Position numbers and translations under genes: made by a program
Shown here: in pieces, positions 3,159 through 48,900 of the stretch
Numbering within the stretch: position 1 is the stretch's first letter
Layout of the letters: every line of letters begins with the position of its first letter
The notes under the pieces: generated by a model
Databases searched by the model: none
Seen by the model: only the letters and a program-made list of their open reading frames with translations
What the model was told of the DNA's origin: nothing
Source of the DNA: Burkholderiales bacterium
GTDB taxonomy: Bacteria > Pseudomonadota > Gammaproteobacteria > Burkholderiales > SG8-41
DNA length: 62,159 nt
Assembly (NCBI GenBank): GCA_038106575.1
Contig: JAYOED010000006.1
Location: 1 to 62,159 of the forward strand
Direction of reading: 5' to 3'

Positions 3159-3908
3159 ATGTCCATCGTCGCCCCCTGGCTGCACCTGGGCTATGTCATT
3201 CCGCATCTCTATACCGACATGGACGCCTACCAGTTCTATCGCGTCGCGCCTGACGGCATGATGCTGGTGACCACTGGACTGAATCTCAGGGAATATTCGC
3301 TCGCCGCTGTCGAATCCGAGCTGCCTGCGTTGTGGAGCGCATTTGACCGGCTGAAACACAAGAAGGTGGACCGTATCGCGTTGAGCGGCGTGCCGGTGGC
3401 CTCGGTGCTGGGCCGGAAAAAGATGTGCGAGATTCTCGACGAGGGCGCGCAGCGCACCGGCATCGCCTGCGACACCGACCTCGAGGCCCATATTGCGACG
3501 CTGCAGCATTTCGGTATCACCAGGCTGGCACTCGCCACGCGCTGGCCCGAGCACGTCAACGCCGCATTGTCGAACTACCTGAAGGAAGCCGGTATCGAAG
3601 TGGTATCGCTACGCGCGCAGGGACGCAACCTTGAGCAGAACAAACTGTCGAGCCCGCTCGCCGACCATGAGCTCGCGCTGGAACTAGGTCGTGCCGCACT
3701 CGCCGCAGCGCCCGAAGCGCAGGCCCTGCTGTTGCCGGGCGGACTGTGGTTTGCCATCCATGCCGTACCGACACTTGAAGCCGAATTCGGCAAACCCGTC
3801 CTGCTCAACATCCTGTCAACGACCTGGGCAGCGCTCAATGCCGCACCGAAGCCGCTGCAGCACAAGCCCGATCCGTGTTGGGGCAAGGTGCTGGGATGTC
3901 TTGCATGA
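3159..3908 (+). CDS. Asp/Glu/hydantoin-racemase-superfamily protein (maleate isomerase / arylmalonate decarboxylase-like)
   Basis: 249 aa. The architecture resembles maleate isomerase and AMDase (RLALATRW...YLKEAGIEVV...LGKPVLLNILSTTWAAL). AGGAG RBS upstream. The stop TGA overlaps the next gene's ATG (ATGA at 3905-3908). Confidence 0.65.
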   Translation: MSIVAPWLHLGYVIPHLYTDMDAYQFYRVAPDGMMLVTTGLNLREYSLAAVESELPALWSAFDRLKHKKVDRIALSGVPVASVLGRKKMCEILDEGAQRTGIACDTDLEAHIATLQHFGITRLALATRWPEHVNAALSNYLKEAGIEVVSLRAQGRNLEQNKLSSPLADHELALELGRAALAAAPEAQALLLPGGLWFAIHAVPTLEAEFGKPVLLNILSTTWAALNAAPKPLQHKPDPCWGKVLGCLA

Positions 3909-4945
3909 GCCTGCCGGGTTTCGCCAGCAATGTCATTGAGGTCGATGATGCCACCGCGGCGAATGAACTCTATCAGCGAAACGGCTGGACCGACGGCCTG
4001 CCTATTGTGCCGCCGACCGAAGAAGCGGTCGCACGTTTTCTTGAGGCGTCGCACTGCGCCCCAGATGATGTCATCGGCATCGAGCCGGTTCGCCGGCGCA
4101 CATTGACCGCAGAAAAAATCGCCATTGCCGCAGTGATGGCCGGCTGCCTGCCTGAATACCTGCCGGTGGTGCTGGCCGCGGTACGGGCGATGTGCCAGCC
4201 CGAATACGCACTGCATGGCAGCACGGCAAGCACCGGCGGCAGCGCACCCTTCCTCGTCGTCAACGGCCCGATCCGCAACGTACTCGGCATGAACGCGACG
4301 CATAATGTTCTCGCTAACGCCTGCCGCGCCAATGCCACCATCGGCCGCAGTATCCGCCTGATCCTGCTCAACGTGCTCGGTGGCATACCGGGCCAGCTCG
4401 ACCGCTCGACGCTGGGGCATCCGGGCAAGTTCACCTTCTGCATCGCGGAAGACGAGGAAGATTCACCGTGGCTGCCGCTGTCGGTGGAACGCGGAATTCC
4501 CGCCGGCACCTCGGCGGTGACCGCATTGCAGGTCGAGTCGCCGCACCAGATCATGAATGAGTGGACGCACGACCCGCGGGAAATCCTCGATACCTACGTT
4601 GCGGCGATGCGCAGCAACCTGCTGACCTATTCGATCTGGGAAGGCAACTACGCCTTTGTCATCCCCAAGCAGCACCGCGAGATTTTCGCTGCCGCCGGCT
4701 GGAGCAAGCAGAACATCCGCGACTACACCTTTGAGAAAGCCTGCGTGAAGCGCGGCGAGTGGCGCAGCGTCGGCAAGGCCGCGGTCGCCGGCCGCAAGGA
4801 CGAAGACCGGCTTTACCGCGCGCTGCGCGCGCCGGACGACCTGCTGGTGATCGCCGCCGGCGGACCAGCCGGCGGTTTCGGCGCCATCCTGCCGCCGTGG
4901 TACGGTAAGAAATCGCTCGCCGTGACGACGCCCATACAACCCTGA
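3905..4945 (+). CDS. uncharacterised DGLPxxPPT-motif protein, stand-alone partner of the UGSC selenoprotein
   Basis: 346-aa ORF, with the start set at ATG 3905 (ATGA overlap with the upstream stop). It is homologous by eye to the C-terminal ~350 aa of the proteins at 8386..10116 and 18403..20103 (GWTDGLPIVPPT, MAGCLPEYLPVVLAAV, VVNGPI). Confidence 0.7.
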   Translation: MSLPGFASNVIEVDDATAANELYQRNGWTDGLPIVPPTEEAVARFLEASHCAPDDVIGIEPVRRRTLTAEKIAIAAVMAGCLPEYLPVVLAAVRAMCQPEYALHGSTASTGGSAPFLVVNGPIRNVLGMNATHNVLANACRANATIGRSIRLILLNVLGGIPGQLDRSTLGHPGKFTFCIAEDEEDSPWLPLSVERGIPAGTSAVTALQVESPHQIMNEWTHDPREILDTYVAAMRSNLLTYSIWEGNYAFVIPKQHREIFAAAGWSKQNIRDYTFEKACVKRGEWRSVGKAAVAGRKDEDRLYRALRAPDDLLVIAAGGPAGGFGAILPPWYGKKSLAVTTPIQP

Positions 4946-4967
4946 ACATTTCTGCAAGGAGAGTCCC

Positions 4968-5498
4968 ATGACCCTGCGCGTCCTCGACCCCCGGCAATCG
5001 GCCCACGGCGAAGCCCTGCGCCTCGCGCCGCCACTAGCCTCCCTCGACGGTGCCGTCATCGGCATGATCGACAACGCCAAGATCGGCACCGAGCGCCTGT
5101 TCGACTTCGTTGAAGAAATTCTCAAGAAGGAACACGGCGTGCGCGAATGCATCCGCCGCCGCAAGCCCGACGCATCACGACCGGTGCCGGAGGCCATGTT
5201 GCTGGAAATGCGCGGCGCCGATGCCGTGCTGGCGGCAATCGGCGACTGAGGCAGCTGCTCGTCGTGCAGTCTGCACGACGCAATCGCAGCAGAACGGCTC
5301 GGCATCCCGGCGGTGGCCATCATCACCGACCGCTTTGCGCGCACCGCTCAGTCGGTAAGCCAGGTCAACGGACTGAAGGACTATCCCTTTGCGGTGATTT
5401 CGCACCCGGTGGCCAACAACAACGATGAAGTGCTACGCGAGAAAGCGCGCATCGCGCTCGCCGACATCCTACCGATGCTGATGCAGCGATCCGCGTAA
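4968..5498 (+). CDS. UGSC-motif selenoprotein (in-frame UGA at 5247-5249 read as selenocysteine), 176 aa
   Basis: ORFs 4968..5249 and 5313..5498 share one frame and are separated only by a TGA. Reading through gives ...ADAVLAAIGD-U-GSCSSCSLHDAIAAERLGIPAVAIITD..., conserved in two paralogs that carry TGA at the same column. AGGAGAG RBS before ATG 4968. Hairpin at 5260-5280. Confidence 0.8.
5260..5280 (+). promoter_or_regulatory. putative bacterial SECIS hairpin
   Basis: The 8-bp perfect stem CGUCGUGC/GCACGACG with loop AGUCU starts 11 nt after UGA 5247-5249. Confidence 0.6.
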
Positions 5499-5508
5499 CA
5501 AAAACCCG

Positions 5509-6708
5509 TCAGTCCCGCGTCGCCACCACCTTGTCGGCGATCAGCCGGTCGATGGCCGGCCTGTCGAGTCCGATGGATTCGAGCACACCACGGGTATGTT
5601 CCCCCACCTGTGGGATATCGATGCGGGTTCCGAAGCGCTGCCCGTCCATCTCGATCGGCAATACCGGCACCTTGGTCTTGACGCCGTTGTTCAGCGTCAC
5701 CGGTGTCATGCCTTTCGAAGCATTCAGGTGCTTGTCCTCGAACAGGTCTTCAGGTTTGGCGATGGGTGCGAACGGGAGGCCAAGTTTTTCGCAACGGTCC
5801 ATCAGCTCCTGCTTGCCCATCTTCGCGAAGATTTCGCTGACGATGGGCAGGATGCGCGGCCGCTGCTCGACGCGCTGTGGATTGGTTTTCATGTCCTGAT
5901 CGTTGAACAGCTCCATCAGCCCGAACGATTCGCAGAATACCTTCCACTGCGTGTCTGTCACCACGCCGACGAACACCAGATCACCGTCCTTCGTCTTAAA
6001 GTTGTCGTAGAGTGCCCACGCGCGCACGCGGTCGGGCATGGGCTTTACCGGCTTGCCGGTGGCGAAGCCTTCGAGCATGTGCTGCGCGACCAGGAATGCA
6101 TTGTTCTCGAACAGCGCGCTCTGCACGTACTGACCCTTGCCGGTGGCATGACGTTGATTCAGTGCAGCGAGTATCGCCACCGCGCCGAACACGCCGCCCA
6201 TCACGTCGTTGACCGAGGCACCAGCGCGCAATGGCCCGAAACGCCCGCCGGTCATGTAGGCGAGCCCGCCCATCATCTGCACCACTTCATCGAGTCCGGT
6301 GCGATGATCGTACGGCCCGGGCAAAAATCCTTTCAGCGAGCAAAAGACCAGCTCGGGCTTCAGCTTGCTCAATGCTTCATAGCCGAAGCCGAGCTTGTCC
6401 ATGGCACCGGGACGGAAGTTTTCAGTGACCACGTCGGCGCTGGCAATCAGCTTCAGCACCAGTTCGCGGCCTTTCTCCGACTTGAGATCGACAGCTAAGC
6501 TTTTCTTGTTGCGGTTGTAGGTCGGGAAAAACCCCGCGCCCGAAGCCGTCAGCTTGCGGGTGTGGTCGCCGTCAAGCGGCTCGACCTTGATCACCTCGGC
6601 ACCGAGATCGGCAAGCACCAGGCCGCAGGTCGGGCCCATCACCACGTGGCAGAACTCGATGACGCGGATGCCCGCGAGCGGTAGTGGCTGAGTCATGTCT
6701 GAATCCAT
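5509..6708 (-). CDS. family III CoA-transferase (CaiB/BaiF type)
   Basis: 399-aa ORF with the N-terminal pattern PLAGIRVIEFCHVVMGPTCGLVLADLGAEVIKVEP. The start could instead be the ATG at 6696. It is co-directional with the rhodanese gene upstream, with an 88-nt gap. Confidence 0.85.
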   Translation of the reverse strand: MDSDMTQPLPLAGIRVIEFCHVVMGPTCGLVLADLGAEVIKVEPLDGDHTRKLTASGAGFFPTYNRNKKSLAVDLKSEKGRELVLKLIASADVVTENFRPGAMDKLGFGYEALSKLKPELVFCSLKGFLPGPYDHRTGLDEVVQMMGGLAYMTGGRFGPLRAGASVNDVMGGVFGAVAILAALNQRHATGKGQYVQSALFENNAFLVAQHMLEGFATGKPVKPMPDRVRAWALYDNFKTKDGDLVFVGVVTDTQWKVFCESFGLMELFNDQDMKTNPQRVEQRPRILPIVSEIFAKMGKQELMDRCEKLGLPFAPIAKPEDLFEDKHLNASKGMTPVTLNNGVKTKVPVLPIEMDGQRFGTRIDIPQVGEHTRGVLESIGLDRPAIDRLIADKVVATRD

Positions 6709-6796
6709 TCAATATGGCTGTGTTGCCGGATGAAATTACTTTGCAGGCAATTCCCCGCGGGAAGGCCGACTATATCGCGAACCGGAAAACATGCTA

Positions 6797-8386
6797 CTAG
6801 GGGTAGCGGCGAAAGCCAAAATCGGAATCGCTGGCCACTGCATCAAGCAGCTCCACTTCCCATCTCAGGTATTCACGCATTGCCTGTTCAACGTTGTCCT
6901 TGCGGTCGAGCGCGCGATAGCTCAGGTCATCGGCAGCGCCGGTCATACGCGCGTCCCCAGTTTCCAGTCCGTAACCCGCCAATTGCCACGCAGCAGTGCC
7001 GCCAGTAAGCGCCTTGACTGGGGTTGCAGTCAGGGTCGCCGCGTCGGCCGCAGCCAGACGCGCCAGCATTTCTTCGGCTGCCGTGAACACCAGCAGCGCC
7101 GCCTGGGGAATTTTTATCAGCTGGTCCCGTATCCGGGAACGCACCACGTGCCACGCACCCGGAATATGTCCCTCGCGATACTGCAGGCTGCTACCAAGGT
7201 CGGCCACCTGCGCCTTGCCGTCTGCCAGCAGGCTCTGCAATTCCGCCGCCGCCACTGTTGCGGAGCATGGCTGTGCGCCGTCGAGCAGTGTCACCGGCAC
7301 CGGCCCGCGCTCGGTCAACGATGCCTCATCACAGGCCAGCACGTGCACTTCATCGTGACCCATCTGCGCCAGCCATGCCGCGGTCATCGTTGCACGAACG
7401 CCATCATTGTCGGTTAGTACTACCACCGACGGACGCACCGCGATGAAGGTATCGGTTGCCTGCACCAGTTGTCCGCCAGGTGCGGATAAGGCTCCCGGCA
7501 GATGGCCGGCTTCGAATTCCTCAGGGGCGCGCACGTCCAGCAGGTACAGCGTGCGCTTGCCGTCGGCCCGCAGTGCCTGCAACCGGGCAGCATCAATACG
7601 GCGGATGCCGAAGCGCTGCGCCACACGCTCTGCCGCCTGCTGTGCCCAAGCCCTGCCTTTGGTCGAAGGCGGCGGAACCGCCTCGGTGCGGCCGTGGTTC
7701 AGCTGCAGGCCAGCCAGCTTCCAGCCCTGGGTGCCGTCCTTCAGTGCATAGACCGGGTTCGGAAAACCAGCATTGATCAGCACCTGAGCGCCGATGATGC
7801 TGCGCGTGCGTCCGCCGCAGTTGACCACAACCGTCGTCTGCGCGGAACGCACGAAATCGGTCATGCGGTACGGTAGCTCCGCGCTCGGACAATCCCAGGC
7901 ACCGGGTATGCTGTTGCGACGGAATTCCGCCATTGGCCGGCTGTCGACGACCACCATGTCCCTGCTAGATTTCATCCACGCGTCGAGTTCGGTTGCCGTA
8001 ACTTCGCGCGGCGCATCTTCGTGCTGGATGTATTCGCCGAAAGCCTTGCTCGGCACGTAAACACCGGTGTAGAGCCGGAATCCCGCGGCCTTCCACGCCG
8101 ACGTTCCGCCATCGATCAACTGCACGTCGGCATAGCCGCCCGCCAGCAGTTTCACCGCAGCTAATTCCGCCAGGCCTTCGCCGCCGTCACAAACGACGAT
8201 ACGCACGTTCTTGCGCGGCAGCAGCGCCTGCACACGCAACTCGAGCACGCTCAACGGTACATTCGACACCCGCAGCAGATGACCATCTCCCGAATAGACA
8301 CCCTCCTCGCGTACGTCGAGTACGGCAATTTCTTCGCCATCGTCGAGCAGTCCCCGTAGTTGTCGAGGCGTGATCCGTCGCACCAT
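6797..8386 (-). CDS. four-domain rhodanese-like sulfurtransferase
   Basis: 529 aa from ATG 8386 (MVRRITPRQLRGLL...). Four rhodanese repeats are present. The active-site loops carry Cys in repeats 1 (VVCDGGEG) and 2 (VNCGGRTRS) but not in repeats 3 (LTDNDGVR) or 4 (FTAAEEM). The ATG overlaps the upstream TGA stop (TGATG). The 612-aa track ORF is an upstream extension. Confidence 0.8.
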   Translation of the reverse strand: MVRRITPRQLRGLLDDGEEIAVLDVREEGVYSGDGHLLRVSNVPLSVLELRVQALLPRKNVRIVVCDGGEGLAELAAVKLLAGGYADVQLIDGGTSAWKAAGFRLYTGVYVPSKAFGEYIQHEDAPREVTATELDAWMKSSRDMVVVDSRPMAEFRRNSIPGAWDCPSAELPYRMTDFVRSAQTTVVVNCGGRTRSIIGAQVLINAGFPNPVYALKDGTQGWKLAGLQLNHGRTEAVPPPSTKGRAWAQQAAERVAQRFGIRRIDAARLQALRADGKRTLYLLDVRAPEEFEAGHLPGALSAPGGQLVQATDTFIAVRPSVVVLTDNDGVRATMTAAWLAQMGHDEVHVLACDEASLTERGPVPVTLLDGAQPCSATVAAAELQSLLADGKAQVADLGSSLQYREGHIPGAWHVVRSRIRDQLIKIPQAALLVFTAAEEMLARLAAADAATLTATPVKALTGGTAAWQLAGYGLETGDARMTGAADDLSYRALDRKDNVEQAMREYLRWEVELLDAVASDSDFGFRRYP

Positions 8387-10116
8387 CAAATCCGGCACTC
8401 GTCGGCGGTGCAACCCAGATCGCGATCCGATTCGGCCAGCAGCCGGTCGAATGACTCCGGCGTGCGGATCACCCGTCCCACGACTGCAGGCGAATGCGCC
8501 TGCAGCCACTGGCTGTGCGTCGGATGGTCGCCGCCGGCGACCACCAGGATCAGGTTGTCGGGTTTCTGCGCGATCGGCCACGGATCGAGCCTGATGCTGT
8601 CGCGCGCCACCGGATTGGCATCGATCTCGATCCACGCCGGCCCGCCGCCGCGCTTGAGTTGCGCCATCGGAATCTTCGAATTTTCCCAGAGAAAATCACG
8701 CAGCTTCTTCGGCGTCCAGCCGAGCTTCGCCATCATGCCCGCGACCACCGGCGAGATCAGCATCGCGCCGGGCGTGCCCTTCTCCCATCCTGCCAGCGCG
8801 GCAAGATTCGGCGTGCGCATGAAATCCGCCATGCGCCACAGGCCCTGGGTGATGTCCTCTTCCGGCGTTTCCTTTTTTGCGCCACGGCGGCGGATGTTGC
8901 TGACGCCGCTGGCGAAAAACACCGACACTGCGTTTGTACCGGGCTCGAAACCGTGGCGCTGGGTCGCATGCGGCGCCCAGCCCTCGGGCAGGCTCGCCTC
9001 ATCCTCGGCAAACACAGCGTTGGTGTAGCGCATCGCGCCGAAGATCGCCATGGTGCCGATGCCCGGCAGCGCGCCGCCGACGTTCTGCTGCAGCAGGCGC
9101 AGCGCGCGGCCGATGCTGGCACCGGCGGGCCGCTGCGGATCAGGGCCGAGACAGCCAAAACCGGAATTGAGGCGGATGTCCTCCGCAATCGGGCCGTTGA
9201 CGATGACGACCGGAAAAGGGCTGCCCGAAGTCGCCTGCACCTGATCGAACAGCGTTGCGGGATCGAGGCAGGCCTCAACCGCAGCAACCAGCACCGGCAG
9301 GTACTCGGGTCGACCCCCGGCCATCGCCAGCGCCACCGCGCAGGTCTCGACCGTGGTGACGCCGCCGCGCGGCGGGAACTTGCCCAGCACCTGTGTGCGC
9401 GGGTAAGCCGAGCCGCGCAGTATCCAGTCGACGCGCTCGCGTGTCGCCGGCCACACCGGCAGGCCGTCGCCCCACAGATTGGTGATCAGCAGGTTGTTGG
9501 CTTTCTGCAGCGCGTCCTCATAGGTTTTCCCCTCCACGCTCAACATTGGCAGTTCGCCGTCTGCGGATTGCGCGTAATCGGATTTCCATTTCATCAATCC
9601 GTTGTAGAACTCCTTCTTGCGGGTGGAAATCGCCGTCAGATCGCTTCCCGGCAGGAACATATCGATCGGAAACGTCACCATCGCCGCATCGGGCGCAAGA
9701 CCGAGGCCCGACACCGCATTCTTCATCACGCCGACAAAATCCGTCCGCGTCAGGGTGACGGTGGGTATTCCCAGTGTTTCTATCCTCGCGGCAGCACGGC
9801 CGCAAGCGGTGGCGCAGGAGCCTCAGGCCGCGTTGCCGACGATGACCGCTTCAACGCCGCTTTTCTGGACCAGCGCAGCGGTCTCCTCGGTGGGAATCAG
9901 CACATTACCCTGGGGATAGGCATCGATCGGCAGCAGTTCCGCAGTCGGATAATCGGCCTTGATCAGATCGCGCAGCAGCGGCAGCATGCGAAACGCCTGC
10001 CACTGCTCGTTACTGACGAAACCGATGCGCTTGCCGTCGAGGGTATCGATGCGTGGCGCAAACGGCAGGGTGACCTCCAGCGCGCCGGACGGATCATGAA
10101 ATTCAAGTGTGACCAT
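8386..10116 (-). CDS. fused UGSC-motif selenoprotein + DGLPxxPPT domain (UGA at 9823-9825 read as Sec), 576 aa
   Basis: ORFs 9823..10116 and 8386..9729 share one frame and are joined across a TGA: ...VEAVIVGNAA-U-GSCATACGRAAARIETLGIPTVTL... The C-terminal part has NLWGDGLPVWPAT, MAGGRPEYLPVLVAAV and IVNGPI. GGAGG RBS before ATG 10116. Confidence 0.8.
9785..9806 (-). promoter_or_regulatory. putative bacterial SECIS hairpin
   Basis: Stem CUUGCGGC/GCCGCGAG (8 bp, one G-U pair) with loop CGUGCU, starting 17 nt after the UGA. Confidence 0.55.
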
Positions 10117-16810: not shown

Positions 16811-18403
16811 TCAGTGCGGTGCACGCCTGATCATTTCGCCCGGCAGCGCATCGCTGCGGTTGCCGTGTTCTAGTACTGGCACGCCGTTGACCATAACCGC
16901 GACAACGCCAACCGCGAACTGGTGCGGGTCAGCATAGGTCGCACGTTCGGCGATGGTTACCGGGTCAAATACGGTCACATCGGCACGGCAGCCTGGACGC
17001 AACAGACCTCGGTCAGCCAGCCCAAGCGCCGCAGCCGAACGCCCTGTCATCTTGGATACCGCGGTTTCCAGCGGCAGCAGGTTCTCCTCGCGCACGTAGC
17101 GCCCGAGCACGCGGGCGAAGGTGCCGTAGAACCGCGGATGCGGTTTACCCTGGCCGGTAATCCCGGTCGGTGCAACTGCGTTGCCGTCCGAACCCACCAT
17201 CACTTCGGGAGCCCGCACGAATGCACGCACGTCATCCTCGGAAATTGATTCGACGACCACCCGAGTCTGGCCGCGGTCGGCAATAATGTAGTCGAGCGCT
17301 GCGTCGAACGGGTCCTTGTTCTGTTCCAGCGCAATCTGCGCGATGGTTTTGCCGGCGTGATGTCCAAGATCAGGCGATATCGAAATACGCACCGCATCCC
17401 AGGAGCGGATTCTTCCAAAATTGTTCAACCCGCCTGCGGCGATCTCGTCACGAACCCGTGCACGAACCGCCTCGTCGCCCAGCCTTACCAGCATGGCATC
17501 GATACCGTCCTGCTGCAGCCACGACGGCATCAGATTGCGCAGCGGATTGGATGCGGCGGTGTACGGATACTGGTCGCAGTCAATCTGCACGCCATCCGCA
17601 CGCGCTGCGGCTAGCCGCGCGAGGAAACGCTCCACAGTGCCCCAGTTGTCAGTACCCGACACCTTGGCATGCACAATCTGCACATGGACTCCCGTCTGCG
17701 CGCCGAATTCAATCGCCTCCTCGGCGGCATCGAACACCGCGTTGGCTTCGTCCCGCAGATGGGTGAAATAGCGCGCACCGTGGCGCCGCAGTACGCGACC
17801 GAGTTCGACCATCTCTTCGCCGCGCGCATACGACCCGGGCGCGGTAAACAGTCCTGACGACAGCCCCAGCGCTCCGGCTGCGAGCGCCTCCTCGAGCAAG
17901 GACACCATCAGCGCAAGCTCCACCGGTGTGGGTTTTCGAGCCTCCATACCCATGGCCATCAGGCGCAGCGTGTTGTGACCGACCAGCATTACGCGATTGA
18001 CAGCTGTGGCCGGATAGTGTGCCGCATAATCAGCGTAGCTCGTATCGCGGAATTCCAGCCACGGCGCGCTAGGCGAAAGGTATTGGCGTAGCGCGGCGGC
18101 GCGTCCCGGCAGGCAGGGTGCACAGGAATAACCGCAATGCCCGATCACTTCGGTAGTCACACCCTGGCGAATCTTGCTCTCAGCCTGCGGCATCAGCGGC
18201 AAAGTCCAGTCCGAATGTGTCTTGATGTCGATAAAACCGGGGGCAACCACCAGGCCCCGCGCATCGATCACCCGCGCACCGGTAACAGGCAGGTCACGAC
18301 CGACCGCTGCGATACATCCGTCTCGCAGCGCTACGTCAGCCGACTGTGGCGGGCCGCCGGTGCCGTCAATGACGGTACCGCCACGTACAACGATCGACTC
18401 CAT
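16811..18403 (-). CDS. N-acyl-D-amino-acid deacylase (D-aminoacylase) family amidohydrolase
   Basis: 530 aa from ATG 18403 (MESIVVRGGTVIDGTGG...APGFIDIKTHSD...EVIGHCGYSCAP). The ATG overlaps the upstream selenoprotein's TGA stop (TGATG). Confidence 0.85.
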   Translation of the reverse strand: MESIVVRGGTVIDGTGGPPQSADVALRDGCIAAVGRDLPVTGARVIDARGLVVAPGFIDIKTHSDWTLPLMPQAESKIRQGVTTEVIGHCGYSCAPCLPGRAAALRQYLSPSAPWLEFRDTSYADYAAHYPATAVNRVMLVGHNTLRLMAMGMEARKPTPVELALMVSLLEEALAAGALGLSSGLFTAPGSYARGEEMVELGRVLRRHGARYFTHLRDEANAVFDAAEEAIEFGAQTGVHVQIVHAKVSGTDNWGTVERFLARLAAARADGVQIDCDQYPYTAASNPLRNLMPSWLQQDGIDAMLVRLGDEAVRARVRDEIAAGGLNNFGRIRSWDAVRISISPDLGHHAGKTIAQIALEQNKDPFDAALDYIIADRGQTRVVVESISEDDVRAFVRAPEVMVGSDGNAVAPTGITGQGKPHPRFYGTFARVLGRYVREENLLPLETAVSKMTGRSAAALGLADRGLLRPGCRADVTVFDPVTIAERATYADPHQFAVGVVAVMVNGVPVLEHGNRSDALPGEMIRRAPH

Positions 18404-20103
18404 CAACGTCGCCCCGGCATCGCAATGGCCTTGCACACTGGAAACCCCAGTACCCCGTTGTGCGCGAACACGTAAATGCTGTTGCGGCCGAGATCGCCGG
18501 TGACAACGATCTGATAATCCCCGGGCCTCCATACCACGGGCACCAGCCGCTCCGGATCATCGGACTCGTGGAACAGCTTTGGAATGCGCCCGGCCTCGTG
18601 TTCCTCCTTCAGATTCCATGTCGGCTTCTGCGTCCAGTCGCGGAGAATGCGCTCGAAACGGTGAGCGGGCATGCGCGCCCGCGCAAACAGTTCCTCGCGG
18701 AATTTCTGCTTCGACCAGCCGCTGCCGGCGATGGTCTCGGCGACGATCGGCGACATCAGAATCAGCGGCCGCAGCGTGTCGTAGCCCTGCCCTACCGAAA
18801 ACATGATCTGCCATGAATACTGGCTGATCACCGCGTCGGCGATGTAAGGCATCAACTCTTCGGGTTTCGATCCCGACACCGACGAAATGTGGTTGCCGCC
18901 GGTGTAGCGCCCGACCGACAGCGCGTTGGTGCCTGCGGCGAAACCGTAATCGGCGCAGTTCGGCGTCCAGCCGATTTTCTTCACCACGTCCTCGTTCTCG
19001 GCCACCACCACGCGCCAAGTGTTGCCGAAAGTGGCCTTGTCGTTGCCGTGCGGCAGGAAGCCAGCGATGTTGCGCAGGCACAGCCGCCAGAAGCGGCCGA
19101 CCGTGGAATTAGCCTGGAAACCATCGCGCATCACGCCCTGCGTGTAATTGAAACCGAGTTCCTTGATCACCGGGCCGTTGAGGACGATCAGGTTCTCGCC
19201 GCCGGGGGTATTGCCGCTGTGCTCTACGCCATAGTTGTGATCCGCCATCGCTTCCACCGCCGCCACCAGCACCGGCATGTACTCCGGGCGGCAGCCCGCC
19301 ATTACGCCGTTGACTGCGGCGCTCCACACCGTCGCCGTGCGGTTGTCGGGCAACAGCACGCCAATGACTTCATCGGGTTTGCGGTCGGTATATTTTAAGA
19401 AAGCCTCGACCTTCTCCACCGTAGGCGGCACGACCGGCAGCCCGTCCGACAGCTGGTTGGCGATAAAATATTCGTTGATCTCTTCAAATGAGCCGGTGCA
19501 GACGACATCACGCGCCCCCGGTTCGCCGCTGACGGTTTTCGCCGCCGGCATGGTCAGCAGGTTGTCGATCACGCTGTTAAGCGTCAGCTCGCGCACGTTC
19601 TGCTGCAACGCTTCCTTGCTCTGCAAGCCAGGATGGCCACGCACCGGTGCCACCGCAATGTTCGGAAAACCTAAACCCTGCGAGGCCGCCTTTGCCAGCG
19701 TCATGAAGCTCTCACAGACCAGCGTCGAGGAGGGAATCCCTGCGCCTTCCGCCGCCACACTCGCCCGCAACACGGCGGGCGTGCAGCTTCCTCAACAACC
19801 CATCCCGGAAACGACGGCGTCGGCACCGAGCTCGCGAAGCTTCTGCGGCAGGTTGGCCACCACATTACGCTCGTCACTGCCATGGGTATTGCCGAACAGA
19901 TCCCAGTGCAGGAATTTCACGCCCGGATATTTCGCCGCCAGGCTTTTCTCAAGCTGCTCGAACACCTCGTTGCCGCGGAACACATAGTCCCACACCCAGG
20001 CGATGGTTTTGCCTTGCAGCGTATCGAGCCGTTTCGCCAGCGGTTTGACCTTGGCCTGGCGCGGACCGCGCGGCCACAGCGCCGCGTATTGCCGATCTGT
20101 CAT
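18403..20103 (-). CDS. fused UGSC-motif selenoprotein + DGLPxxPPT domain (UGA at 19792-19794 read as Sec), 566 aa
   Basis: ORFs 19792..20187 and 18403..19773 share one frame and are joined across a TGA: ...ADAVVSGMGC-U-GSCTPAVLRASVAAEGAGIPSSTL... The C-terminal part has NQLSDGLPVVPPT, MAGCRPEYMPVLVAAV and VLNGPV. Start set at ATG 20103, preceded by an AGGAG RBS. Confidence 0.8.
19762..19781 (-). promoter_or_regulatory. putative bacterial SECIS hairpin
   Basis: 7-bp perfect GC-rich stem CGCCCGC/GCGGGCG with loop CGUGUU, starting 11 nt after the UGA. Confidence 0.6.
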
Positions 20104-22430: not shown

Positions 22431-23213
22431 TCACTCCCACAGCCGCTCGGGTAGCGGCAGCCCGGCGAGATCGGCGGCGGTCAGCGGCCGGTCGGGGGTG
22501 ACGCCGATGCGCTCTAATACCTCAATCAGCTGCCGGCAGTGCTGCGCCGAATGCCAAGTCACCCGCTCAAGCACTAGGTGCGCGGGGGTTTCTCCAAAAT
22601 AAGTCTTGAGCACGCGTTCGAGTTCGCGATCTTCGATCCCGGTCCACCAGGATTCGAAGCGCTTCCACACGCCTTCGCCGTAGCACGCGATGTCGTCGCC
22701 GCTCTGTAATGCTTCCGGCGGCTCGTTATCGGCAATCTTCACCGAATACTCGGCGCCGTCCCAGGTTTCGAGGAACGACTCGCCGATGCGGAACACGTGG
22801 TAGCACAGCGTACGAATTACACGCTCGCGATGCGGAATCACGCGGTCACGAAAATGCTCCGCCGGAAACTGGCGCGCGTAACGCGCCGCAGCGGCAAACA
22901 CCATTCCGTATTTTCTGTACAGCTGTTCCGGAGAAAGGCGATCCTTACCCGGCAGCGGCAGTCTGGCAAACTTGGCAAAGGGATCGAGCATCTGGCCGAA
23001 TGCGTATTTATCGCCCTTCGCCAGCACCGGAACCTTGCGGATGCCGTATTTGTTGAACAGCAATTCACGGCCGCCCGGGTCGTTCAGCACATCGATCACG
23101 AGCATGTCCACACCATTTTTCGAAAGAAACTCTTTCGTGCGAAGGCAGCTACTTCACCCGGGCTGGGTGAAATAAAGAAATTTGTCGGCGGGGATGTCGG
23201 TCAATGTCGTCAC
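22431..23213 (-). CDS. glutaredoxin-like (U-x-x-C) + DinB/YfiT-like domain selenoprotein candidate (UGA at 23154-23156), ~260 aa
   Basis: The frame upstream of track ORF 22431..23111 stays open except for one TGA: (V)TTLTDIPADKFLYFTQPG-U-SSC-LRTKEFLSKNGVDMLVIDVLNDPGGRELL..GIRKVPVL. This is a Grx/Trx fold with Sec at the first redox position. The C-terminal domain has a DinB-like HSAQH motif. The start (GTG 23213 or TTG 23204) is uncertain. Confidence 0.65.
23121..23137 (-). promoter_or_regulatory. putative bacterial SECIS hairpin
   Basis: Stem CGAAAG/CUUUCG (6 bp) with loop AGUUU, starting 17 nt after the UGA. It is weaker and more AU-rich than the other three. Confidence 0.4.
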
Positions 23214-41707: not shown

Positions 41708-42862
41708 ATGAAAATAATCAAACTGATACCGCAAAGTAAGTACGGCTGGCTGCGTGCAACCGCCTGCGCTCTCGTGTTCTGCTTCACGGCTGCCAACGCG
41801 GCCCAGCAAGCCCCGACACAACCTTCTAGTATCGACTCCGTCGCCCGCCTGATCGCCGGCCTGACGCCGTCCAATCCTGAGCATGTTGAACTGGCTGCCG
41901 GCAACTCGTGGCAAAAACACAGCACAGCCATGCTGAAATCATGGTCAAAGGTCCGCGACGGCCAGCTAGCCGCGATGAAAACCTGGCGCGCCGCGGAGCT
42001 ACCGGCAAAATGCCCCGTCGGCAACACACTGTTCTACCCGTTCAGCGGCCCCGACTTCCTCAATGCATGGACGCTGTTTCCAGATTGCGAAACCTACGTG
42101 ATGTTCGGCCTCGAACCAATCGGCAAGATGCCTGATCCGTCAAAAATGGGTCCGAAAGAATTCGCGAAACTGCTGGCTACCGTGCGCGATGCGATGGCCA
42201 ACCTGTTCGAGCGCAATTACTTCGTCACCAACACCATGCGCCGCAACCTGCGCACCGAGCAGCTGCGCGGCGTGGTGCCGATCTTCACGATGTCGATGGT
42301 GTTTTCGGGCGTCGAAGTGGTCGGTATCGGACCAGCGCCGTTTCCAAAATTAACCGGAAAGAAATCCCGGCTCGACGGCATGGCCATCGATTACCGGGTG
42401 CCGGGCAGCGGGCGCACGCAGCGGGTGATCTACTATTCGGTCGACATTTCGGACAAGGGCCTTGCTGACTATCCGGAATTCCTGACCTACCTTCGCGGGC
42501 TGACGCCGACCACGACTTTGGTCAAGGCGGCTTCGTACCTGATGCACATCAAGGAGTTCAGCAAGATCCGCGGTGTATTGCTTGATACCAGCGAATTCCT
42601 GCTGCAGGACGATACCGGCATTCCATACAACTTCCTGGTAAAGCGCGGATTTACCGTGCAGCCCTACGGTATCTACAAGAAACCGATCCCGCCGTTCGAG
42701 CCGCAGTATCAGCCCTCGCTGAACGCGCTCTACCAGTCGACCAAGGCACCGGCGCTGCCGTTCCGCTTTGGGTATCACACCTCCCTGGCTGAGAGCCGCT
42801 CGACCCTGCTGATCGGACGGCGCACGCAGCCGGCTCCGCAACAACGATCGGATGCCCGTTAG
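41708..42862 (+). CDS. secreted hypothetical protein
   Basis: 384 aa, with a clear signal peptide (…ALVFCFTAANA-AQ). I do not recognise any family motif. Confidence 0.6.
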   Translation: MKIIKLIPQSKYGWLRATACALVFCFTAANAAQQAPTQPSSIDSVARLIAGLTPSNPEHVELAAGNSWQKHSTAMLKSWSKVRDGQLAAMKTWRAAELPAKCPVGNTLFYPFSGPDFLNAWTLFPDCETYVMFGLEPIGKMPDPSKMGPKEFAKLLATVRDAMANLFERNYFVTNTMRRNLRTEQLRGVVPIFTMSMVFSGVEVVGIGPAPFPKLTGKKSRLDGMAIDYRVPGSGRTQRVIYYSVDISDKGLADYPEFLTYLRGLTPTTTLVKAASYLMHIKEFSKIRGVLLDTSEFLLQDDTGIPYNFLVKRGFTVQPYGIYKKPIPPFEPQYQPSLNALYQSTKAPALPFRFGYHTSLAESRSTLLIGRRTQPAPQQRSDAR

Positions 42863-45770: not shown

Positions 45771-45912
45771 GCGATCTGATGCGCAGCGATAGGCCACCTA
45801 AAAGCCGTTACAATTCCGGACCGGGTTGCGGGCGATAGTCAGGGGCATTGCCCGCCGCTGCCCCGCCCTGCACTTCCACCCTGAACACGTCCCGGATGCC
45901 CTCAGCCTGCGC

Positions 45913-48900
45913 ATGGATATGCCTGAACACGACAACGATCGCATCGTCATCCGCGGCGCGCGCCAGAACAATCTGAAAAACCTGAATCTCGATCTGCCGC
46001 TAAACGAGCTGGTAGTGGTCACCGGTATCTCCGGCAGCGGCAAATCTTCGCTGGTATTCGACACACTCTATGCAGAGGGCCAGCGCCGCTACGTCGAAAC
46101 CTTCTCGCCTTACGCGCGCCAGTTCCTCGATCGCCAGGACCGTCCGCAGGTAGACAGCATCGAGGGCATTCCACCGGCCATTGCCATCGATCAGGTCAAC
46201 CCGGTCCGCACTTCACGCTCAACGGTCGGCACGATGACCGAGCTCAACGATCATCTGAAACTGCTGTTCGCCCGCGCGGCGCATCTGCACTGCCGCGGCT
46301 GCGGTGCGAAGGTGGTGCGCGACAGCCCGCAAACGATAATTGCGTCATTGCAGTCGCGGGCACGAGAAGCCAAAGATCCGCGGCTGGCCATCACCTTTCC
46401 GGTCTCAGTACCGGCAAATTTCAAGGCCGAAGAAGTTAGGGCCCTGCTTACGGCACAGGGTTACACGCGTTTCCTGCGTGAGGACAAAAGCGGTTTCGAA
46501 GTGGTGCAGGACCGGCTGCGCTTGGGCAACGCTGAACGGGTGCGGGTGGTCGAGGCCATCGAGGCGGCGCTAAAAGTCGGCCAGGGTCGCGTCAACGTGC
46601 ACCAGTTGGCAGATGCCGATTCCAACACGGGCAGCGGCACGGTCTGGAAATACTCGGCCGACCTGCACTGCGCCGAATGCGACATCCATTACACCGAACC
46701 CAATCCAAGCCTATTCTCGTTCAATTCGCCGATGGGTGCCTGCGACACCTGCCGCGGCTTCGGTCGCGTGATCGGCCTCGACTACGGACTGGTAATTCCG
46801 GATGAATCGAAATCGCTGCGCGACGGTGCGATCAAGCCCTGGCAAACGCCCTCCTACAAGGAATGCCAGGACGACCTAATGAACTACGCGCGCAAGCGTG
46901 GCATTGCAGTCGACCGGCCCTGGCGCGAGCTGTCTGCAAAGGAAAAACGCTGGGTGCTCGACGGAGAGCCGGACTGGATCAACTGGCGCAAGTCATGGCC
47001 GGGCACCTGGTACGGCGTCTCTCGCTTCTTCAAGTGGCTGGAAACCAAGGCCTACAAAATGCATGTTCGCGTGCTGCTGTCCAAATACCGGGCCTACACC
47101 GAATGCACGACCTGCACCGGCGCCAGACTAAAGGCCGAGGCGCTGCTGTGGCGCATCGGCTCGGCGGATAACGCCCGCGGCGCGCTGGCCAGCCGGCCGC
47201 GCCACCGGCCGCAGGGCATGAATCTCAACGAGAAACAGCTCGAAGCATTGCCCGGCCTCACTTTGCACGACGTGATGCTGCTGCCGCTGGAGCGCACCAA
47301 GGTTCTGTTCGAAAAACTGGAACTGCCGGCGCCTCTGGATGAAGCCACCGACATGCTGGTCGGTGAAATCCGCACCCGGCTCGATTATCTGAACCAGGTC
47401 GGGCTCGGCTATCTGACGCTGGACCGCCAGTCGCGCACGCTGTCCGGCGGTGAAGTACAACGTATAAATCTCACCACCGCCCTCGGCACCTCGCTGGTCA
47501 ATACGCTGTTCGTGCTCGACGAGCCTTCAATCGGACTGCATCCGCGCGACATGGGTCGCGTCATCGGCGTCATGCACCGTCTGCGCGACGCCGGCAATTC
47601 GCTGGTCGTGGTCGAACACGATCCGCAGGTGATGCTCGCCGCCGACCGTCTGCTAGACATCGGCCCCGGGCCGGGATCTAAAGGCGGTGAAATCGTCGCC
47701 TTCGATACGCCGGCACGGGTCACGCGCAAACTCAATTCCATCACCGGTCGCTATCTCGCCGGCGAATTGCGCGCCGACAATGCAGTAGAAGTGAAACCGC
47801 CCGCAAAAAACGGGCCCTGCATCCGCCTTCGCGGCGCAGCCGAACACAACCTTAAACGCATCGACGTCGATTTCCCGCTACAGCGGCTCGTTTGCATTAC
47901 CGGGGTTTCCGGTTCCGGCAAGTCGACACTGGTGCAGGACGTGCTGCATGCCGCGCTGCGCAAGGCGCTGGGCAAGCCGACAGAGATCCCGGGGAAGCAC
48001 GATCATCTCTACGGGGCAGATCAAATCGGCGACGTGATCATGGTCGATCAGTCGTCGATTGGCCGCACTACGCGTTCCAACCCTGCGAGCTACGTAGGCG
48101 CATTTGACGCCGTTCGTTCGCGTTTCTCTTCGACGCCGCTGGCGCAGTCCCGCGGCTACACCGCGGGCACATTCAGCTTCAATTCCGGCACCGGCCGCTG
48201 TCCGACCTGCAGCGGAAACGGTTTCGAGCATGTCGAGATGCAGTTTCTCTCCGACGTCTTTCTGCGCTGTCCGGACTGCGACGGACGGCGCTATCGCGCC
48301 GAAGTGCTCGAAATCACCGTCTCCGGAAAGTCGATTGCCGATGTGCTCGAAATGACGGTAGCCGACGCACTAGAATTCTTCGGTCATGCGCCAGACGTCT
48401 CGCGCGCGTTGCAGCCACTGGTCGATGTCGGTCTCGATTACCTGAAGCTGGGACAGCCAGTACCGACGCTATCAGGCGGCGAAGCGCAACGCCTCAAGCT
48501 CGCCGGTTTCCTCGCAGCAGCCGCGACCGGTCCGAACGCGAAAGGCACAAAAAAAACGCTGTTCCTGTTCGATGAGCCGACCACCGGGTTGCACTTTGAC
48601 GACGTACGAAAGCTCCTTGGCGCATTCCGCAAACTGCTTTCGGCAGGACACTCGCTGATCGTCATCGAGCACAATCTTGACGTAATCCGCGCCTCCGACT
48701 GGATCATCGATCTCGGCCCCGAAGGCGGCGATGCCGGGGGAACGATGTTGTGTAACGGCACGCCGGAGGCCATTGCCGCACAGGAAAACTCACATACCGG
48801 TAAGGCGCTGCGTGATTACGCCGCCGCACTCGGCACGCCCGCAGCTCCACCGCAAGCGCTGCCAGCAACCGTCGCACGCCACGGCGATGCCATAAGCGTC

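What the first reader, a model, noticed from the sequence alone, without database searches (positions are those of the whole stretch)
4968..5498. In-frame UGA at 5247-5249 joins two ORFs into a 176-aa U-G-S-C (UxxCxxC) selenoprotein
ORFs 4968..5249 and 5313..5498 are in the same frame (offset 345 nt) and the only interruption is the TGA at 5247-5249. The 63 nt between the TGA and the next possible start contain no stop. They encode GSCSSCSLHDAIAAERLGIPA, which is conserved at protein level in two paralogs in this window. Those paralogs carry a TGA at the identical column.

Eleven nt after the TGA there is a perfect 8-bp hairpin with loop AGUCU (5260-5280). This is the position and shape expected for a bacterial SECIS element. 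The local motif D-U-G-S-C-S-S-C places Sec directly after a predicted beta-strand (ADAVLAAIG) and at the start of a helix. A gene caller would report two fragments or a truncated 93-aa protein.
Basis: partly seen in the sequence, partly recalled or inferred. Interest (0 to 1): 0.85.

Follow-up and report, generated by a model that had tools for sequence, protein, structure and literature searches.

The report
Known UGSC selenoprotein, unnamed obligate partner
The in-frame UGA is a genuine selenocysteine codon in a member of the already catalogued but functionally unknown "UGSC" selenoprotein family, and the gene always travels with one unnamed partner protein, often next to thioredoxin-system or selenocysteine-machinery genes.

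Summary
It is not new.

With Sec written as Cys, the 176-aa product scores above the curated cutoff of NCBIfam NF041046 "UGSC family (seleno)protein" and matches Pfam PF24696. The family has been in the selenoproteome literature since the Sargasso/GOS surveys.

Evidence that UGA encodes Sec:
- All 80 best genome orthologs have TGA at this column, and 67 of 69 copies do in a sample chosen through the partner gene.
- Natural Cys forms exist.
- Gene callers split the gene into 93-aa and 61-aa pieces.
- The hairpin after the UGA shows synonymous-site constraint and compensatory changes, and its loop G-U sits in the same register as in E. coli fdhF.

What I add:
- The gene is half of an obligate pair. 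A ~346-aa protein with no Pfam, NCBIfam or PDB relative is encoded directly upstream (3905-4945) and is fused to UGSC in the window's two paralogs.
- Models indicate a flavodoxin-like fold, not a thioredoxin fold.
- Thioredoxin reductase-type genes and selA-selB-tRNA-Sec operons recur beside the pair in other genomes.

The substrate is unknown. The source genome's own sel genes could not be checked.

The parts
3905..4945 (+). Partner gene (346 aa). It belongs to an unnamed family, and its ATG overlaps the stop of the upstream Amdase-like gene (ATGA).
   Evidence: No Pfam or NCBIfam hit. It is 32-34% identical to the C-terminal domains of the two fusion paralogs. A partner gene lies directly upstream of UGSC in 77 of 80 genome loci. 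The model has pLDDT 95.7 and no convincing PDB relative.
4956..4961 (+). Shine-Dalgarno sequence AAGGAG, 6 nt before the UGSC start codon.
   Evidence: Read directly from the sequence.
4968..5498 (+). UGSC-family selenoprotein gene, 176 aa with Sec at residue 94.
   Evidence: NF041046 scores 131.9 bits against a cutoff of 125, and PF24696 matches at E = 3.9e-50. It is a single frame with one TGA.
5247..5249 (+). UGA selenocysteine codon in the motif D-U-G-S-C-S-S-C.
   Evidence: TGA in all 80 best genome orthologs and in 67 of 69 copies from partner-selected metagenome loci. It is TGC in natural Cys forms.
5260..5280 (+). SECIS hairpin: stem 5260-5268 paired with 5272-5280, loop G-U-C at 5269-5271.
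   Evidence: Folds. 99% of cells pair in 68 distinct orthologs, with compensatory changes. Covariation is 0.233 against 0.096 in shuffles across 64 diverse sequences, and the loop G and U are invariant. Its register matches E. coli fdhF.
8386..10116 (-). Paralog 'fusion 3' (576 aa): an N-terminal UGSC domain joined to a partner domain. UGA at 9825-9823; hairpin about 9806-9785 with loop CCGUGC.
   Evidence: The partner domain lacks both conserved cysteines.
6797..8386 (-). Four-domain rhodanese gene (529 aa) whose ATG overlaps the fusion 3 stop (TGATG).
   Evidence: PF00581 matched four times. The junction was read.
18403..20103 (-). Paralog 'fusion 2' (566 aa): a UGSC domain joined to a partner domain. 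UGA at 19794-19792; hairpin about 19787-19754 with loop CGUGUU.
   Evidence: All 120 listed database relatives are post-UGA fragments.
16811..18403 (-). Amidohydro_3 gene (530 aa) whose ATG overlaps the fusion 2 stop (TGATG). A CinA gene follows at 16824-16291.
3159..3908 (+). Amdase-like (Asp/Glu-racemase superfamily) gene, first gene of the apparent operon Amdase-like, partner, UGSC.
   Evidence: PF17645 at E = 1.7e-21. The same gene order is seen on a Logan contig.
5509..6708 (-). Family III CoA-transferase gene, convergent with the UGSC gene. It is a recurrent neighbour in Burkholderiales loci.
   Evidence: PF02515 at E = 4e-110. CoA_transf_3 was found in 8 of 147 neighbour ORFs sampled from 25 loci.

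Best explanation
Window 4968-5498 is one gene for a 176-aa selenoprotein of the UGSC family.

**Decoding.** UGA at 5247-5249 is read as selenocysteine. The mRNA hairpin at 5260-5280 presents an invariant G-U in its loop, 19 nt after the UGA. This is the arrangement that recruits SelB carrying Sec-tRNA in bacteria.

**Protein.** The protein is a flavodoxin-like alpha/beta domain. Sec sits at the end of a beta-strand and the N-terminus of a helix, followed by Cys three residues later (U-G-S-C).

**Partner.** It does not act alone. It is the small redox subunit of a two-part enzyme whose large subunit is the 346-aa protein encoded immediately upstream (3905-4945). In the window's other two copies the two parts are fused into one chain.

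**Inferred, not shown.** The Sec/Cys pair cycles between selenol/thiol and selenenylsulfide. It is re-reduced by a thioredoxin-reductase-type flavoprotein (with or without thioredoxin). It delivers electrons or a nucleophilic selenolate to a small-molecule substrate bound by the partner, probably a carboxylate taken up by TctC or MFS systems. This resembles in outline how PrdB/GrdB work with PrdA/GrdE. The substrate is unknown.
For: **Identity.** NF041046 above its cutoff and PF24696. RefSeq uses that name for homologs. The family is described in PMC2398784, PMC9312934 and PMC13188914.

**Sec decoding.**
- TGA in 80 of 80 genome orthologs across several phyla.
- 67 TGA against 2 TGC in partner-selected loci.
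- Cys forms exist.
- Three independent TGA sites in one window, each with intact, coding-like downstream frames.
- UGA is otherwise a normal stop, ending 19 of 44 window genes.

**SECIS.**
- Third-codon-position entropy is 0.31 bits inside the hairpin against 1.37 bits outside.
- 99% of cells pair, with 12 cells changed on both sides against 3.5 +/- 1.4 in shuffles.
- In the diverse set, covariation is 0.233 against 0.096 +/- 0.011, five pairs are never unpaired, and G23 and U24 are invariant.
- Positions 23-30 are identical to, and in the same register as, the E. coli fdhF SECIS.
- Cys forms lose the hairpin-forming codons.

**Sec machinery in relatives.** selA, selB, a TrxR-like gene and tRNA-Sec lie beside the pair.

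**Pairing.**
- Both fusion orders and adjacent genes occur.
- The partner is directly upstream in 77 of 80 loci.
- 92 of 92 partner domains are paired with UGSC.
- 71 of 73 evaluable partner-selected loci have UGSC adjacent or fused.
- The fusion model has pTM 0.93.

**Fold.** Best PDB matches are flavodoxin, lumazine synthase and azoreductase.

**Thioredoxin link.**
- Arthrobacter operon trxB-trxA-partner-UGSC.
- A TrxR-like CADC flavoprotein is directly upstream of the pair in Cys-form locus L005.
- The same flavoprotein is present in 11 Sec-form loci.
Against: - No selA, selB, selD or tRNA-Sec is in the window. The source genome could not be examined.
- selD was not seen in any fetched locus.
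- The closest relatives (L009-L018) also lack adjacent sel genes.
- The redox-relay mechanism is inference from gene neighbourhood. The TrxR-like gene inside sel operons might serve selenium assimilation rather than this enzyme.
- The partner's two conserved cysteines are missing from fusion 3, and one is missing from fusion 2, so a Cys relay into the partner cannot be general.
- No metabolic neighbour is conserved across phyla, so the substrate is unconstrained and may differ between paralogs.
- Foldseek matches for the UGSC domain are weak (E 1.6e-3 or worse, TM to target about 0.6).
Confidence: 0.85

Rival explanations
1. The TGA is a real stop. The locus encodes a truncated 93-aa protein, or two separate small genes, or it is a decaying pseudogene.
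For: Gene callers report 93-aa and 61-aa products. The single-sequence hairpin z-score is modest. No sel genes are in the window.
Against: - The frame after the TGA is conserved down to 48% protein identity, and TGA is kept in 80 of 80 loci.
- Cys forms are continuous proteins.
- The 61-aa ORF lacks the 21 conserved residues GSCSSCSLHDAIAAERLGIPA.
- Three paralogs share the same column.
- The hairpin shows covariation.
Confidence: 0.02
2. The UGA is read through, but as a standard amino acid (Trp, Cys, Arg or Gly) by near-cognate suppression or a reassigned code. No selenium is involved.
For: Some database gene calls translate this codon as W. The Sec machinery is unverified for this genome.
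Against: - UGA terminates 19 of 44 window genes, including the partner and both fusions.
- A structured element with an invariant G-U loop in the SelB-type register is conserved.
- selA, selB and tRNA-Sec lie beside the orthologous pair in relatives.
- The only alternative residue seen in nature at this column is Cys.
Confidence: 0.03
3. The UGSC-partner pair works in selenium or sulfur trafficking, for example as a perselenide or persulfide reductase or carrier that feeds selenide to the Sec pathway. It would not be a catabolic reductase.
For: - The pair lies beside selA-selB-TrxR-like-tRNA-Sec operons in 11-16 loci.
- Fusion 3 overlaps, by one base (TGATG), a four-domain rhodanese gene.
- Rhodanese and GST genes recur among neighbours.
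- No selD was seen nearby.
Against: - Cys-form pairs occur in haloarchaea and Arthrobacter, with no sel genes seen in the flanks shown.
- Three paralogs per genome in different catabolic operons fit substrate-specific enzymes better.
- Selenoprotein genes commonly sit next to sel genes simply because they depend on them (my own knowledge, not tested here).
Confidence: 0.2
4. UGSC is a divergent member of the GrdB/PrdB 'selenoprotein B' family (Pfam GRDB PF07355), and the partner is a PrdA/GrdE equivalent.
For: - The U-x-x-C-x-x-C motif is present in this subfamily.
- There is a marginal TIGR04483 PrdB hit to fusion 2 (E = 0.097) spanning the Sec region.
- Like PrdB, it has a two-subunit architecture and prefers Sec. 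PrdB with U151C is inactive (PMC11229817).
- Some operons carry thioredoxin-system genes.
Against: - PF07355 is not matched even at E <= 1.
- The PrdB hit scores 12 bits against a cutoff of 300.
- The partner matches no Pfam family at all, so no sequence relationship to PrdA or GrdE was detected.
- The third Cys is not conserved across the family.
- No PrdB or GrdB structure or sequence was available for a profile or fold comparison.
Confidence: 0.1
5. UGSC is a stand-alone thioredoxin-fold thiol oxidoreductase, as guessed in the 2008 GOS paper.
For: It has a UxxC motif at a helix N-terminus. [quoted passage not shown]
Against: - A confident model (pLDDT 92.5) finds flavodoxin-like proteins, not thioredoxins, as its best PDB matches.
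- The protein is never found without its partner.
Confidence: 0.04

Closest known systems
UGSC family (seleno)protein: NCBIfam NF041046, Pfam PF24696, and the 'UGSC-containing protein' of Zhang & Gladyshev
   Same: It scores above the curated cutoff and has the U-G-S-C motif at the family's Sec column. It is Sec-dominant, as reported (255 Sec against 21 Cys in GOS). Fusion to an unknown domain was already noted as 'UGSC/Unknown_1' (PMC2398784).
   Different: Nothing differs at the family level; this is an ordinary member. Three points are not in the literature I could search: the partnership is obligate and occurs as adjacent genes and as fusions in both orders; the fold is flavodoxin-like; and the pair is linked to thioredoxin-system and sel genes. 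I could not confirm that 'Unknown_1' is this partner, because the figure is held only as an image.
PrdB/GrdB selenoprotein B of D-proline and glycine reductases, working with PrdA/GrdE
   Same: A small Sec subunit with UxxC(xxC), working with a separately encoded larger subunit. It prefers Sec over Cys. Thioredoxin-system genes occur in some operons.
   Different: There is no significant sequence match (PF07355 is absent; the PrdB hit has E = 0.097). The partner shows no detected sequence relationship to pyruvoyl proproteins. The hosts are Burkholderiales, Binatia, Rokubacteria, actinobacteria and haloarchaea rather than Stickland fermenters.
E. coli fdhF SECIS element
   Same: Counting from the U of UGA, positions 23-30 (GUCUGCAC) are identical and in the same register. 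The loop G23-U24 is invariant across the family, and the loop lies within the 16-37 nt range.
   Different: The loop has 3 nt (GUC or GUU) rather than 4 (GGUC). The stem is a continuous helix of 7-9 bp, with none of the unpaired stem residues needed to fold the fdhF sequence. Rfam has no model that matches it.
Flavodoxin-like alpha/beta/alpha proteins (flavodoxin, flavodiiron FMN domain, lumazine synthase, azoreductase)
   Same: These are the best structural matches to the UGSC domain (about 160 aligned columns, TM to target up to 0.60).
   Different: The scores are weak (E 1.6e-3 or worse) and no FMN-binding motif was examined. The redox centre here is Sec/Cys, not a flavin.

Membership tests
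UGSC family (NF041046 / PF24696) | Score at or above the curated HMM cutoff | tested here: met
   NF041046 scores 131.9 bits against a cutoff of 125. PF24696 scores 170.8 bits against a cutoff of 25. The two fusion paralogs pass PF24696 (93.8 and 72.8 bits) but fall below the NF041046 cutoff (46 and 44 bits).
UGSC family (NF041046 / PF24696) | U/C-G-S-C motif at the conserved column | tested here: met
   The motifs are D-U-G-S-C at 5244-5258, C-U-G-S-C in fusion 2 and A-U-G-S-C in fusion 3.
UGSC family (NF041046 / PF24696) | Homologs with Cys at the Sec column | tested here: met
   P0002, P0003, P0004, P0006, P0020 and P0025. L005 and L008 carry TGC. Arthrobacter and Natrinema carry Cys forms.
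Bacterial Sec-decoded gene | In-frame UGA with a conserved coding sequence downstream | tested here: met
Bacterial Sec-decoded gene | SECIS hairpin with its apical loop 16-37 nt after the UGA (PMC10778597) and a G in the loop, supported by covariation | tested here: met
   The loop G-U-C starts 19 nt after the UGA. Fusions 2 and 3 have loops 17 nt and 24 nt after the UGA, each containing GU.
Bacterial Sec-decoded gene | selA, selB, selC and selD present in the same genome | not testable with these tools
   None is in the 62-kb window. Only the window is available for this genome. In relatives, selA, selB and tRNA-Sec flank the orthologous pair. selD was not found in any fetched locus.
Bacterial Sec-decoded gene | Selenium in the full-length product | not testable with these tools
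   This needs 75Se labelling or mass spectrometry.
GrdB/PrdB selenoprotein B (Pfam GRDB PF07355) | Match to the family HMM | tested here: not met
   PF07355 is not listed at E <= 1. TIGR04483 PrdB scores 12.1 bits against a cutoff of 300 on fusion 2 only.
GrdB/PrdB selenoprotein B (Pfam GRDB PF07355) | Partner is a PrdA/GrdE-type pyruvoyl proprotein | tested here: not met
   The partner has no Pfam or NCBIfam family at all.
Thioredoxin-fold oxidoreductases | Thioredoxin fold | tested here: not met
   A model with pLDDT 92.5 has flavodoxin-like top matches and no thioredoxin-fold protein among its 50 best.

The most novel reading that the evidence does not exclude
UGSC and its unnamed ~350-aa partner together form a widespread, previously unrecognised two-component selenoenzyme. 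The partner family has at least 5,178 clusters at 50% identity and no Pfam, NCBIfam or PDB relative. The enzyme would be thioredoxin-reductase-dependent and would carry out a reductive step on small organic acids in aerobic or facultative soil and freshwater bacteria, as a non-clostridial functional analogue of the glycine and proline reductases. The partner would have a fold not yet represented in the PDB.
Probability: 0.4. Interest if true: 0.65.

Novelty: already known. Interest (0 to 1): 0.35.

Why it matters
The selenoprotein call itself only matters for annotation. Standard gene callers split this gene and truncate the two fusion paralogs, and even a RefSeq plasmid carries an unannotated Sec-form fusion.

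The wider interest is that UGSC is one of the most abundant environmental selenoprotein families and has had no assigned function since it was first described (PMC2398784, PMC13188914). This work gives a concrete experimental handle:
- UGSC is never separate from one specific partner protein.
- The pair recurs next to thioredoxin-reductase-type genes and sel operons.
- Natural Cys forms exist in culturable Arthrobacter, Variovorax, Paracoccus and haloarchaea.

Co-expressing the pair with the neighbouring reductase and screening substrates suggested by the operons is now a feasible experiment.

Tried and rejected
- **Pfam GRDB / PrdB homology.** No hit, or only a marginal one. No PrdB or GrdB sequence or structure was available for a profile or fold comparison.
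- **Rfam.** No SECIS or other family matched in the window, and a permissive scan of 5200-5340 gave only noise.
- **PDB by sequence.** Nothing for UGSC or the partner.
- **Foldseek for the partner.** Only weak matches to Toblerone-fold cyclic amide hydrolases and class I fumarases (TM about 0.2, RMSD 12-17 A). I do not treat these as meaningful.
- **Modelling the window's own proteins.** I modelled a natural Cys-form fusion (P0384) and the window's partner instead.
- **Source contig.** P0151 matches the window's fragment at 100% on a 67,858-bp NCBI contig, but the contig could not be retrieved.
- **Plasmid search.** A search with the first 25 kb of the window gave no related replicon.
- **Failed or flawed calls.** The first genome scan with alignment A1 failed for lack of a conserved stretch. 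One alignment (A6) contained a wrong coordinate and was discarded. My first Sec-against-Cys hairpin comparison used an HMM column that was off by one for some rows; it was redone by motif. With only 2 Cys forms in that sample, no statistical contrast of folding energies was possible.
- **selD.** Sought in 1.75 Mb of fetched loci and not found.
- **'Unknown_1'.** The figure in the 2008 paper is held only as an image, so the partner could not be compared with it.
Full report
**1. The observation**

Window 4968-5498 (+) translates as one frame of 177 codons. It has a single internal stop, TGA at 5247-5249, and ends with TAA. An AAGGAG Shine-Dalgarno sequence lies 6 nt before the ATG.

A tblastn of the read-through product against the window finds two paralogs on the minus strand. 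Both have a stop aligned exactly with the TGA, in the motifs GC*GSCT and AA*GSCA. Both stops are TGA, at 19794-19792 and 9825-9823. All coordinates and sequence claims in the finding are correct.

**2. Family identity**

With Sec written as Cys, the protein scores 131.9 bits on NCBIfam NF041046 "UGSC family (seleno)protein", an equivalog model with a cutoff of 125. It also matches Pfam PF24696 "UGSC family" at E = 3.9e-50.

- "UGSC-containing protein" is listed as one of the most abundant selenoprotein families in the Global Ocean Sampling data. That survey counted 255 Sec forms and 21 Cys forms, gave the motif as UxxC, found no known domain, and noted a "UGSC/Unknown_1" fusion (PMC2398784).
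- Reviews from 2022 and 2026 still list it without a function (PMC9312934; PMC13188914).
- RefSeq names distant homologs "UGSC family (seleno)protein".

**3. Is the UGA decoded as Sec?**

(a) Homologs fall into three classes:
- full-length proteins with Cys at the column (GDCGSCSSC);
- full-length gene calls with W there, which I take to be TGA read as Trp under an alternative code, and which stay conserved downstream;
- calls of about 100 aa that end exactly at "...GD".

(b) Public gene calls for this very sequence are 93-aa and 61-aa fragments, and both hit PF24696.

(c) A scan of one genome per species returned 194 relatives. All 80 of the best have TGA at the column. They come from Burkholderiales, Candidatus Binatia, Rokubacteria/Methylomirabilota, Deltaproteobacteria, Entotheonella and others, and reach down to 48% protein identity.

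(d) In 80 metagenome loci chosen through the partner protein, and so not selected on this codon, the count is 67 TGA to 2 TGC.

(e) UGA is an ordinary stop in this organism. It ends 19 of 44 Pfam-supported window genes, including the partner gene and both fusion genes.

**4. The SECIS element**

Numbering the U of UGA as 1, the hairpin pairs positions 14-22 with 26-34, and the loop is G23 U24 C25 (window 5260-5280).

- **One sequence alone.** The fold is only modestly better than shuffles (z = -1.97).
- **Orthologs.** Among 81 sequences (68 distinct), third-codon positions inside the hairpin have a mean entropy of 0.31 bits, against 1.37 bits outside. 99.0% of cells pair, against 0.5-45% when the 3' partners are slid. 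Pair 15-33 switches between G-C (47), A-U (11) and G-U (5). Twelve cells are changed on both sides, against 3.5 +/- 1.4 in shuffles, and no shuffle out of 500 reaches that.
- **Diverse set.** In 64 distinct sequences from partner-selected loci, pairs 17-31 to 21-27 are never unpaired. Pair 19-29 is UA 46, GU 15, AU 2 and CG 1. Pair 21-27 is CG 53, GC 7, UG 3 and UA 1. Covariation is 0.233 against 0.096 +/- 0.011 in shuffles (0 of 500). G23 and U24 are invariant.
- **Coupled amino-acid changes.** Several of these substitutions need coordinated amino-acid changes: C..H becomes S..L, G..L or W..H. The RNA structure therefore constrains the protein sequence. Cys-form genes encode T-L-S, T-L-H, T-V-R or C-I-R over this stretch and lose the complementarity.
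- **Comparison with fdhF.** The E. coli fdhF SECIS read from K-12 has the same GUCUGCAC at the same positions 23-30.
- **Loop position.** The loop begins 19 nt after the UGA, inside the 16-37 nt range given for bacterial SECIS elements (PMC10778597). The two paralogs have their own hairpins, with GU-containing loops 17 nt and 24 nt after their UGAs.
- **Rfam.** No model matches.

**5. Sec machinery**

The window has no tRNA, and no selA, selB or selD among its roughly 55 genes.

In Burkholderiales relatives the picture is clear. ARAGORN scanned 40 loci, and the only tRNAs it found were tRNA-Sec, in L020, L025, L026 and L035. Pfam confirms SelA, SelB and a ~300-aa Pyr_redox_2 flavoprotein in L020 and L025. 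The order is selA, selB, flavoprotein, tRNA-Sec, next to the CoA-transferase, partner and UGSC genes. In L025 all of these are on one strand; in L020 the sel operon is on the opposite strand. By tblastn, selA is in the flanks of 16 loci and selB of 11.

The closest relatives (L009-L018) and the window lack this arrangement.

**6. The gene is half of a pair**

Both paralogs continue past the UGSC domain into a ~400-aa domain, giving products of 566 and 576 aa. The gene ending 23 nt upstream of the finding (3905-4945) is homologous to that domain, at 34% identity (E = 1e-43) and 32% identity (E = 1.5e-34).

This partner has no Pfam or NCBIfam family and no PDB relative by sequence or profile. 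It is nevertheless a large family:
- at least 7,982 clusters at 90% identity;
- 5,178 representatives at 50% identity with E <= 1e-3, of which 1,206 have E <= 1e-30.

Among its top 150 representatives, a local UGSC HMM finds three kinds of attached UGSC sequence:
- UGSC-then-partner fusions;
- partner-then-UGSC fusions that end at the UGA;
- many post-UGA fragments.

The pairing holds from both sides:
- **UGSC side.** The partner is directly upstream in 77 of 80 genome loci. The other three have a 220-nt gap, a partner hit cut by the contig end, or too little flank to tell. Counting every copy in the fetched DNA, 92 of 92 partner domains and 92 of 93 UGSC domains are paired.
- **Partner side.** 71 of 80 metagenome loci have UGSC adjacent or fused, 7 are cut by contig ends, one has UGSC 1.5 kb away and one has none.
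- **Distant taxa.** Cys-form pairs occur in Arthrobacter and, in reverse gene order, in the archaeon Natrinema. RefSeq calls the partner "hypothetical protein" there.

**7. Structure**

A natural Cys-form fusion (P0384) models at pLDDT 92.5 and pTM 0.93.

Foldseek against the PDB gives no hit at E <= 1e-3. The best matches cover about 160 columns of the UGSC domain. They are flavodoxin-like proteins: the flavodiiron FMN domain, lumazine synthase (TM to target 0.60), azoreductase and flavodoxin. None is a thioredoxin-fold protein, contrary to the guess in PMC2398784.

The window's partner models at pLDDT 95.7 and pTM 0.94. Its best PDB matches have TM about 0.2 and RMSD 12-17 A, so it has no convincing relative.

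Near-invariant partner residues are D30, P33, C81, G121, N143, R148, E182, E184 and W189. C179 is 82% conserved. Fusion 2 lacks C179, and fusion 3 lacks both C81 and C179.

**8. Context and mechanism**

The finding's gene sits in an apparent operon: Amdase-like gene, partner, UGSC. The Amdase-like stop overlaps the partner start (ATGA), and a family III CoA-transferase gene is convergent downstream. Fusion 2's stop overlaps the start of an Amidohydro_3 gene (TGATG), which is followed by CinA. Fusion 3's stop overlaps the start of a four-domain rhodanese gene in the same way.

Across 25 diverse loci the most frequent neighbours are TctC (10), CoA_transf_3 (8), MFS (6), GST (4), SelA (3) and Pyr_redox_2 (3). 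No catabolic enzyme is conserved across phyla.

The recurring redox neighbour is of the thioredoxin-reductase type:
- trxB-trxA-partner-UGSC in Arthrobacter;
- a 301-aa flavoprotein with a CADC motif directly upstream of the Cys-form pair in L005;
- its homolog, at 38-42% identity and with the same CADC motif, inside the sel operons of Sec-form loci.

From this I infer that UGSC is the Sec/Cys redox subunit of a two-part enzyme, that a thioredoxin-type system reduces it, and that the partner supplies the substrate site. Only the pairing and the neighbourhood are shown. The electron path, the chemistry and the substrate are inference.

A role in selenium or sulfur trafficking is the main functional rival. 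The evidence for that rival is the rhodanese coupling and the adjacency to sel operons.

**9. Verdict**

The feature is a typical member of a curated, published selenoprotein family, so its novelty is low.

The added value is in three results that I did not find in the searchable literature:
- the obligate, still unnamed partner;
- the flavodoxin-like rather than thioredoxin-like fold;
- the links to thioredoxin-reductase-type genes and to sel operons.

Together they make the long-open question of UGSC function experimentally approachable.

Noticed in passing
window 45826-51555 (+): A 1,909-aa ORF with UvrA interaction and DNA-binding domains and several ABC ATPase hits. It is roughly twice the usual length of UvrA (my recollection).
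   Followed up: no
window 57181-57744 (-) and 58892-59530 (+): Two methionine sulfoxide reductase A (PMSR) genes flank a fructose-1,6-bisphosphatase gene. A Pyr_redox_2 gene follows at 59559-60695.
   Followed up: no
window 41708-42862 (+) and 22431-23111 (-): ORFs of 384 aa and 226 aa with coding-like composition but no Pfam family, apart from a sub-threshold DinB_2 hit on the second.
   Followed up: no
window 6791-7417 and 7502-7876 (+): My composition-based gene caller picked two spurious plus-strand ORFs here. The real gene is the four-domain rhodanese on the minus strand at 8386-6797. The amidohydrolase at 18403-16811 was missed in the same way.
   Followed up: yes
L020 2206-6604, L025 3094-7611, L042 3153-7864: The sel operons beside the UGSC pair hold a ~300-aa gene after selB. 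In L020 and L025 Pfam confirms it as a thioredoxin-reductase-like flavoprotein (CADC motif), and tRNA-Sec follows it. In L042 the gene is a blastp homolog with the same motif, and no tRNA-Sec was detected. No selD was found in 1.75 Mb of fetched loci.
   Followed up: partly
L093 (Acidovorax sp. T1 IncP plasmid p2-T1, NZ_CP021650.1) 4992 onward: A Sec-form UGSC-partner fusion on a conjugative plasmid is annotated only as a 97-aa hypothetical protein. After the partner domain the frame runs on without a stop into unrelated sequence, so the gene may be disrupted; the cause was not examined.
   Followed up: partly
P0024 (NCBI, 221,671-bp contig): A 106-aa gene call joins the partner's N-terminal motif (NELFQRNGWTDGLPIVPPTE) to the N-terminal half of UGSC and ends at the UGA. 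It looks like an internal deletion that fused the two genes.
   Followed up: no
P0273, P0278, P0285, P0300, P0333: Representatives of about 710 aa each match the partner in two or more separate stretches, which suggests two partner domains in tandem.
   Followed up: no
L091 (Arthrobacter sp. ERGS1:01) 1672-2460 and L092 (Natrinema zhouii) 2500-2967: A 'phosphosulfolactate synthase' gene lies near the pair in both an actinobacterium and a haloarchaeon. The window has three TauD dioxygenases, two sulfatases and a PEP-mutase-family gene. This may point to an organosulfonate or C3-acid theme.
   Followed up: no
L091 5001-5816: The Arthrobacter Cys-form UGSC protein (271 aa) has a C-terminal extension of about 95 aa with a CSDC motif that is absent from the window's protein.
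   Followed up: no
whole window: A crude scan for coding-like frames interrupted by a single TGA gave 21 candidates. Only the three UGSC sites have homology support, and the other 18 were not examined individually.
   Followed up: partly
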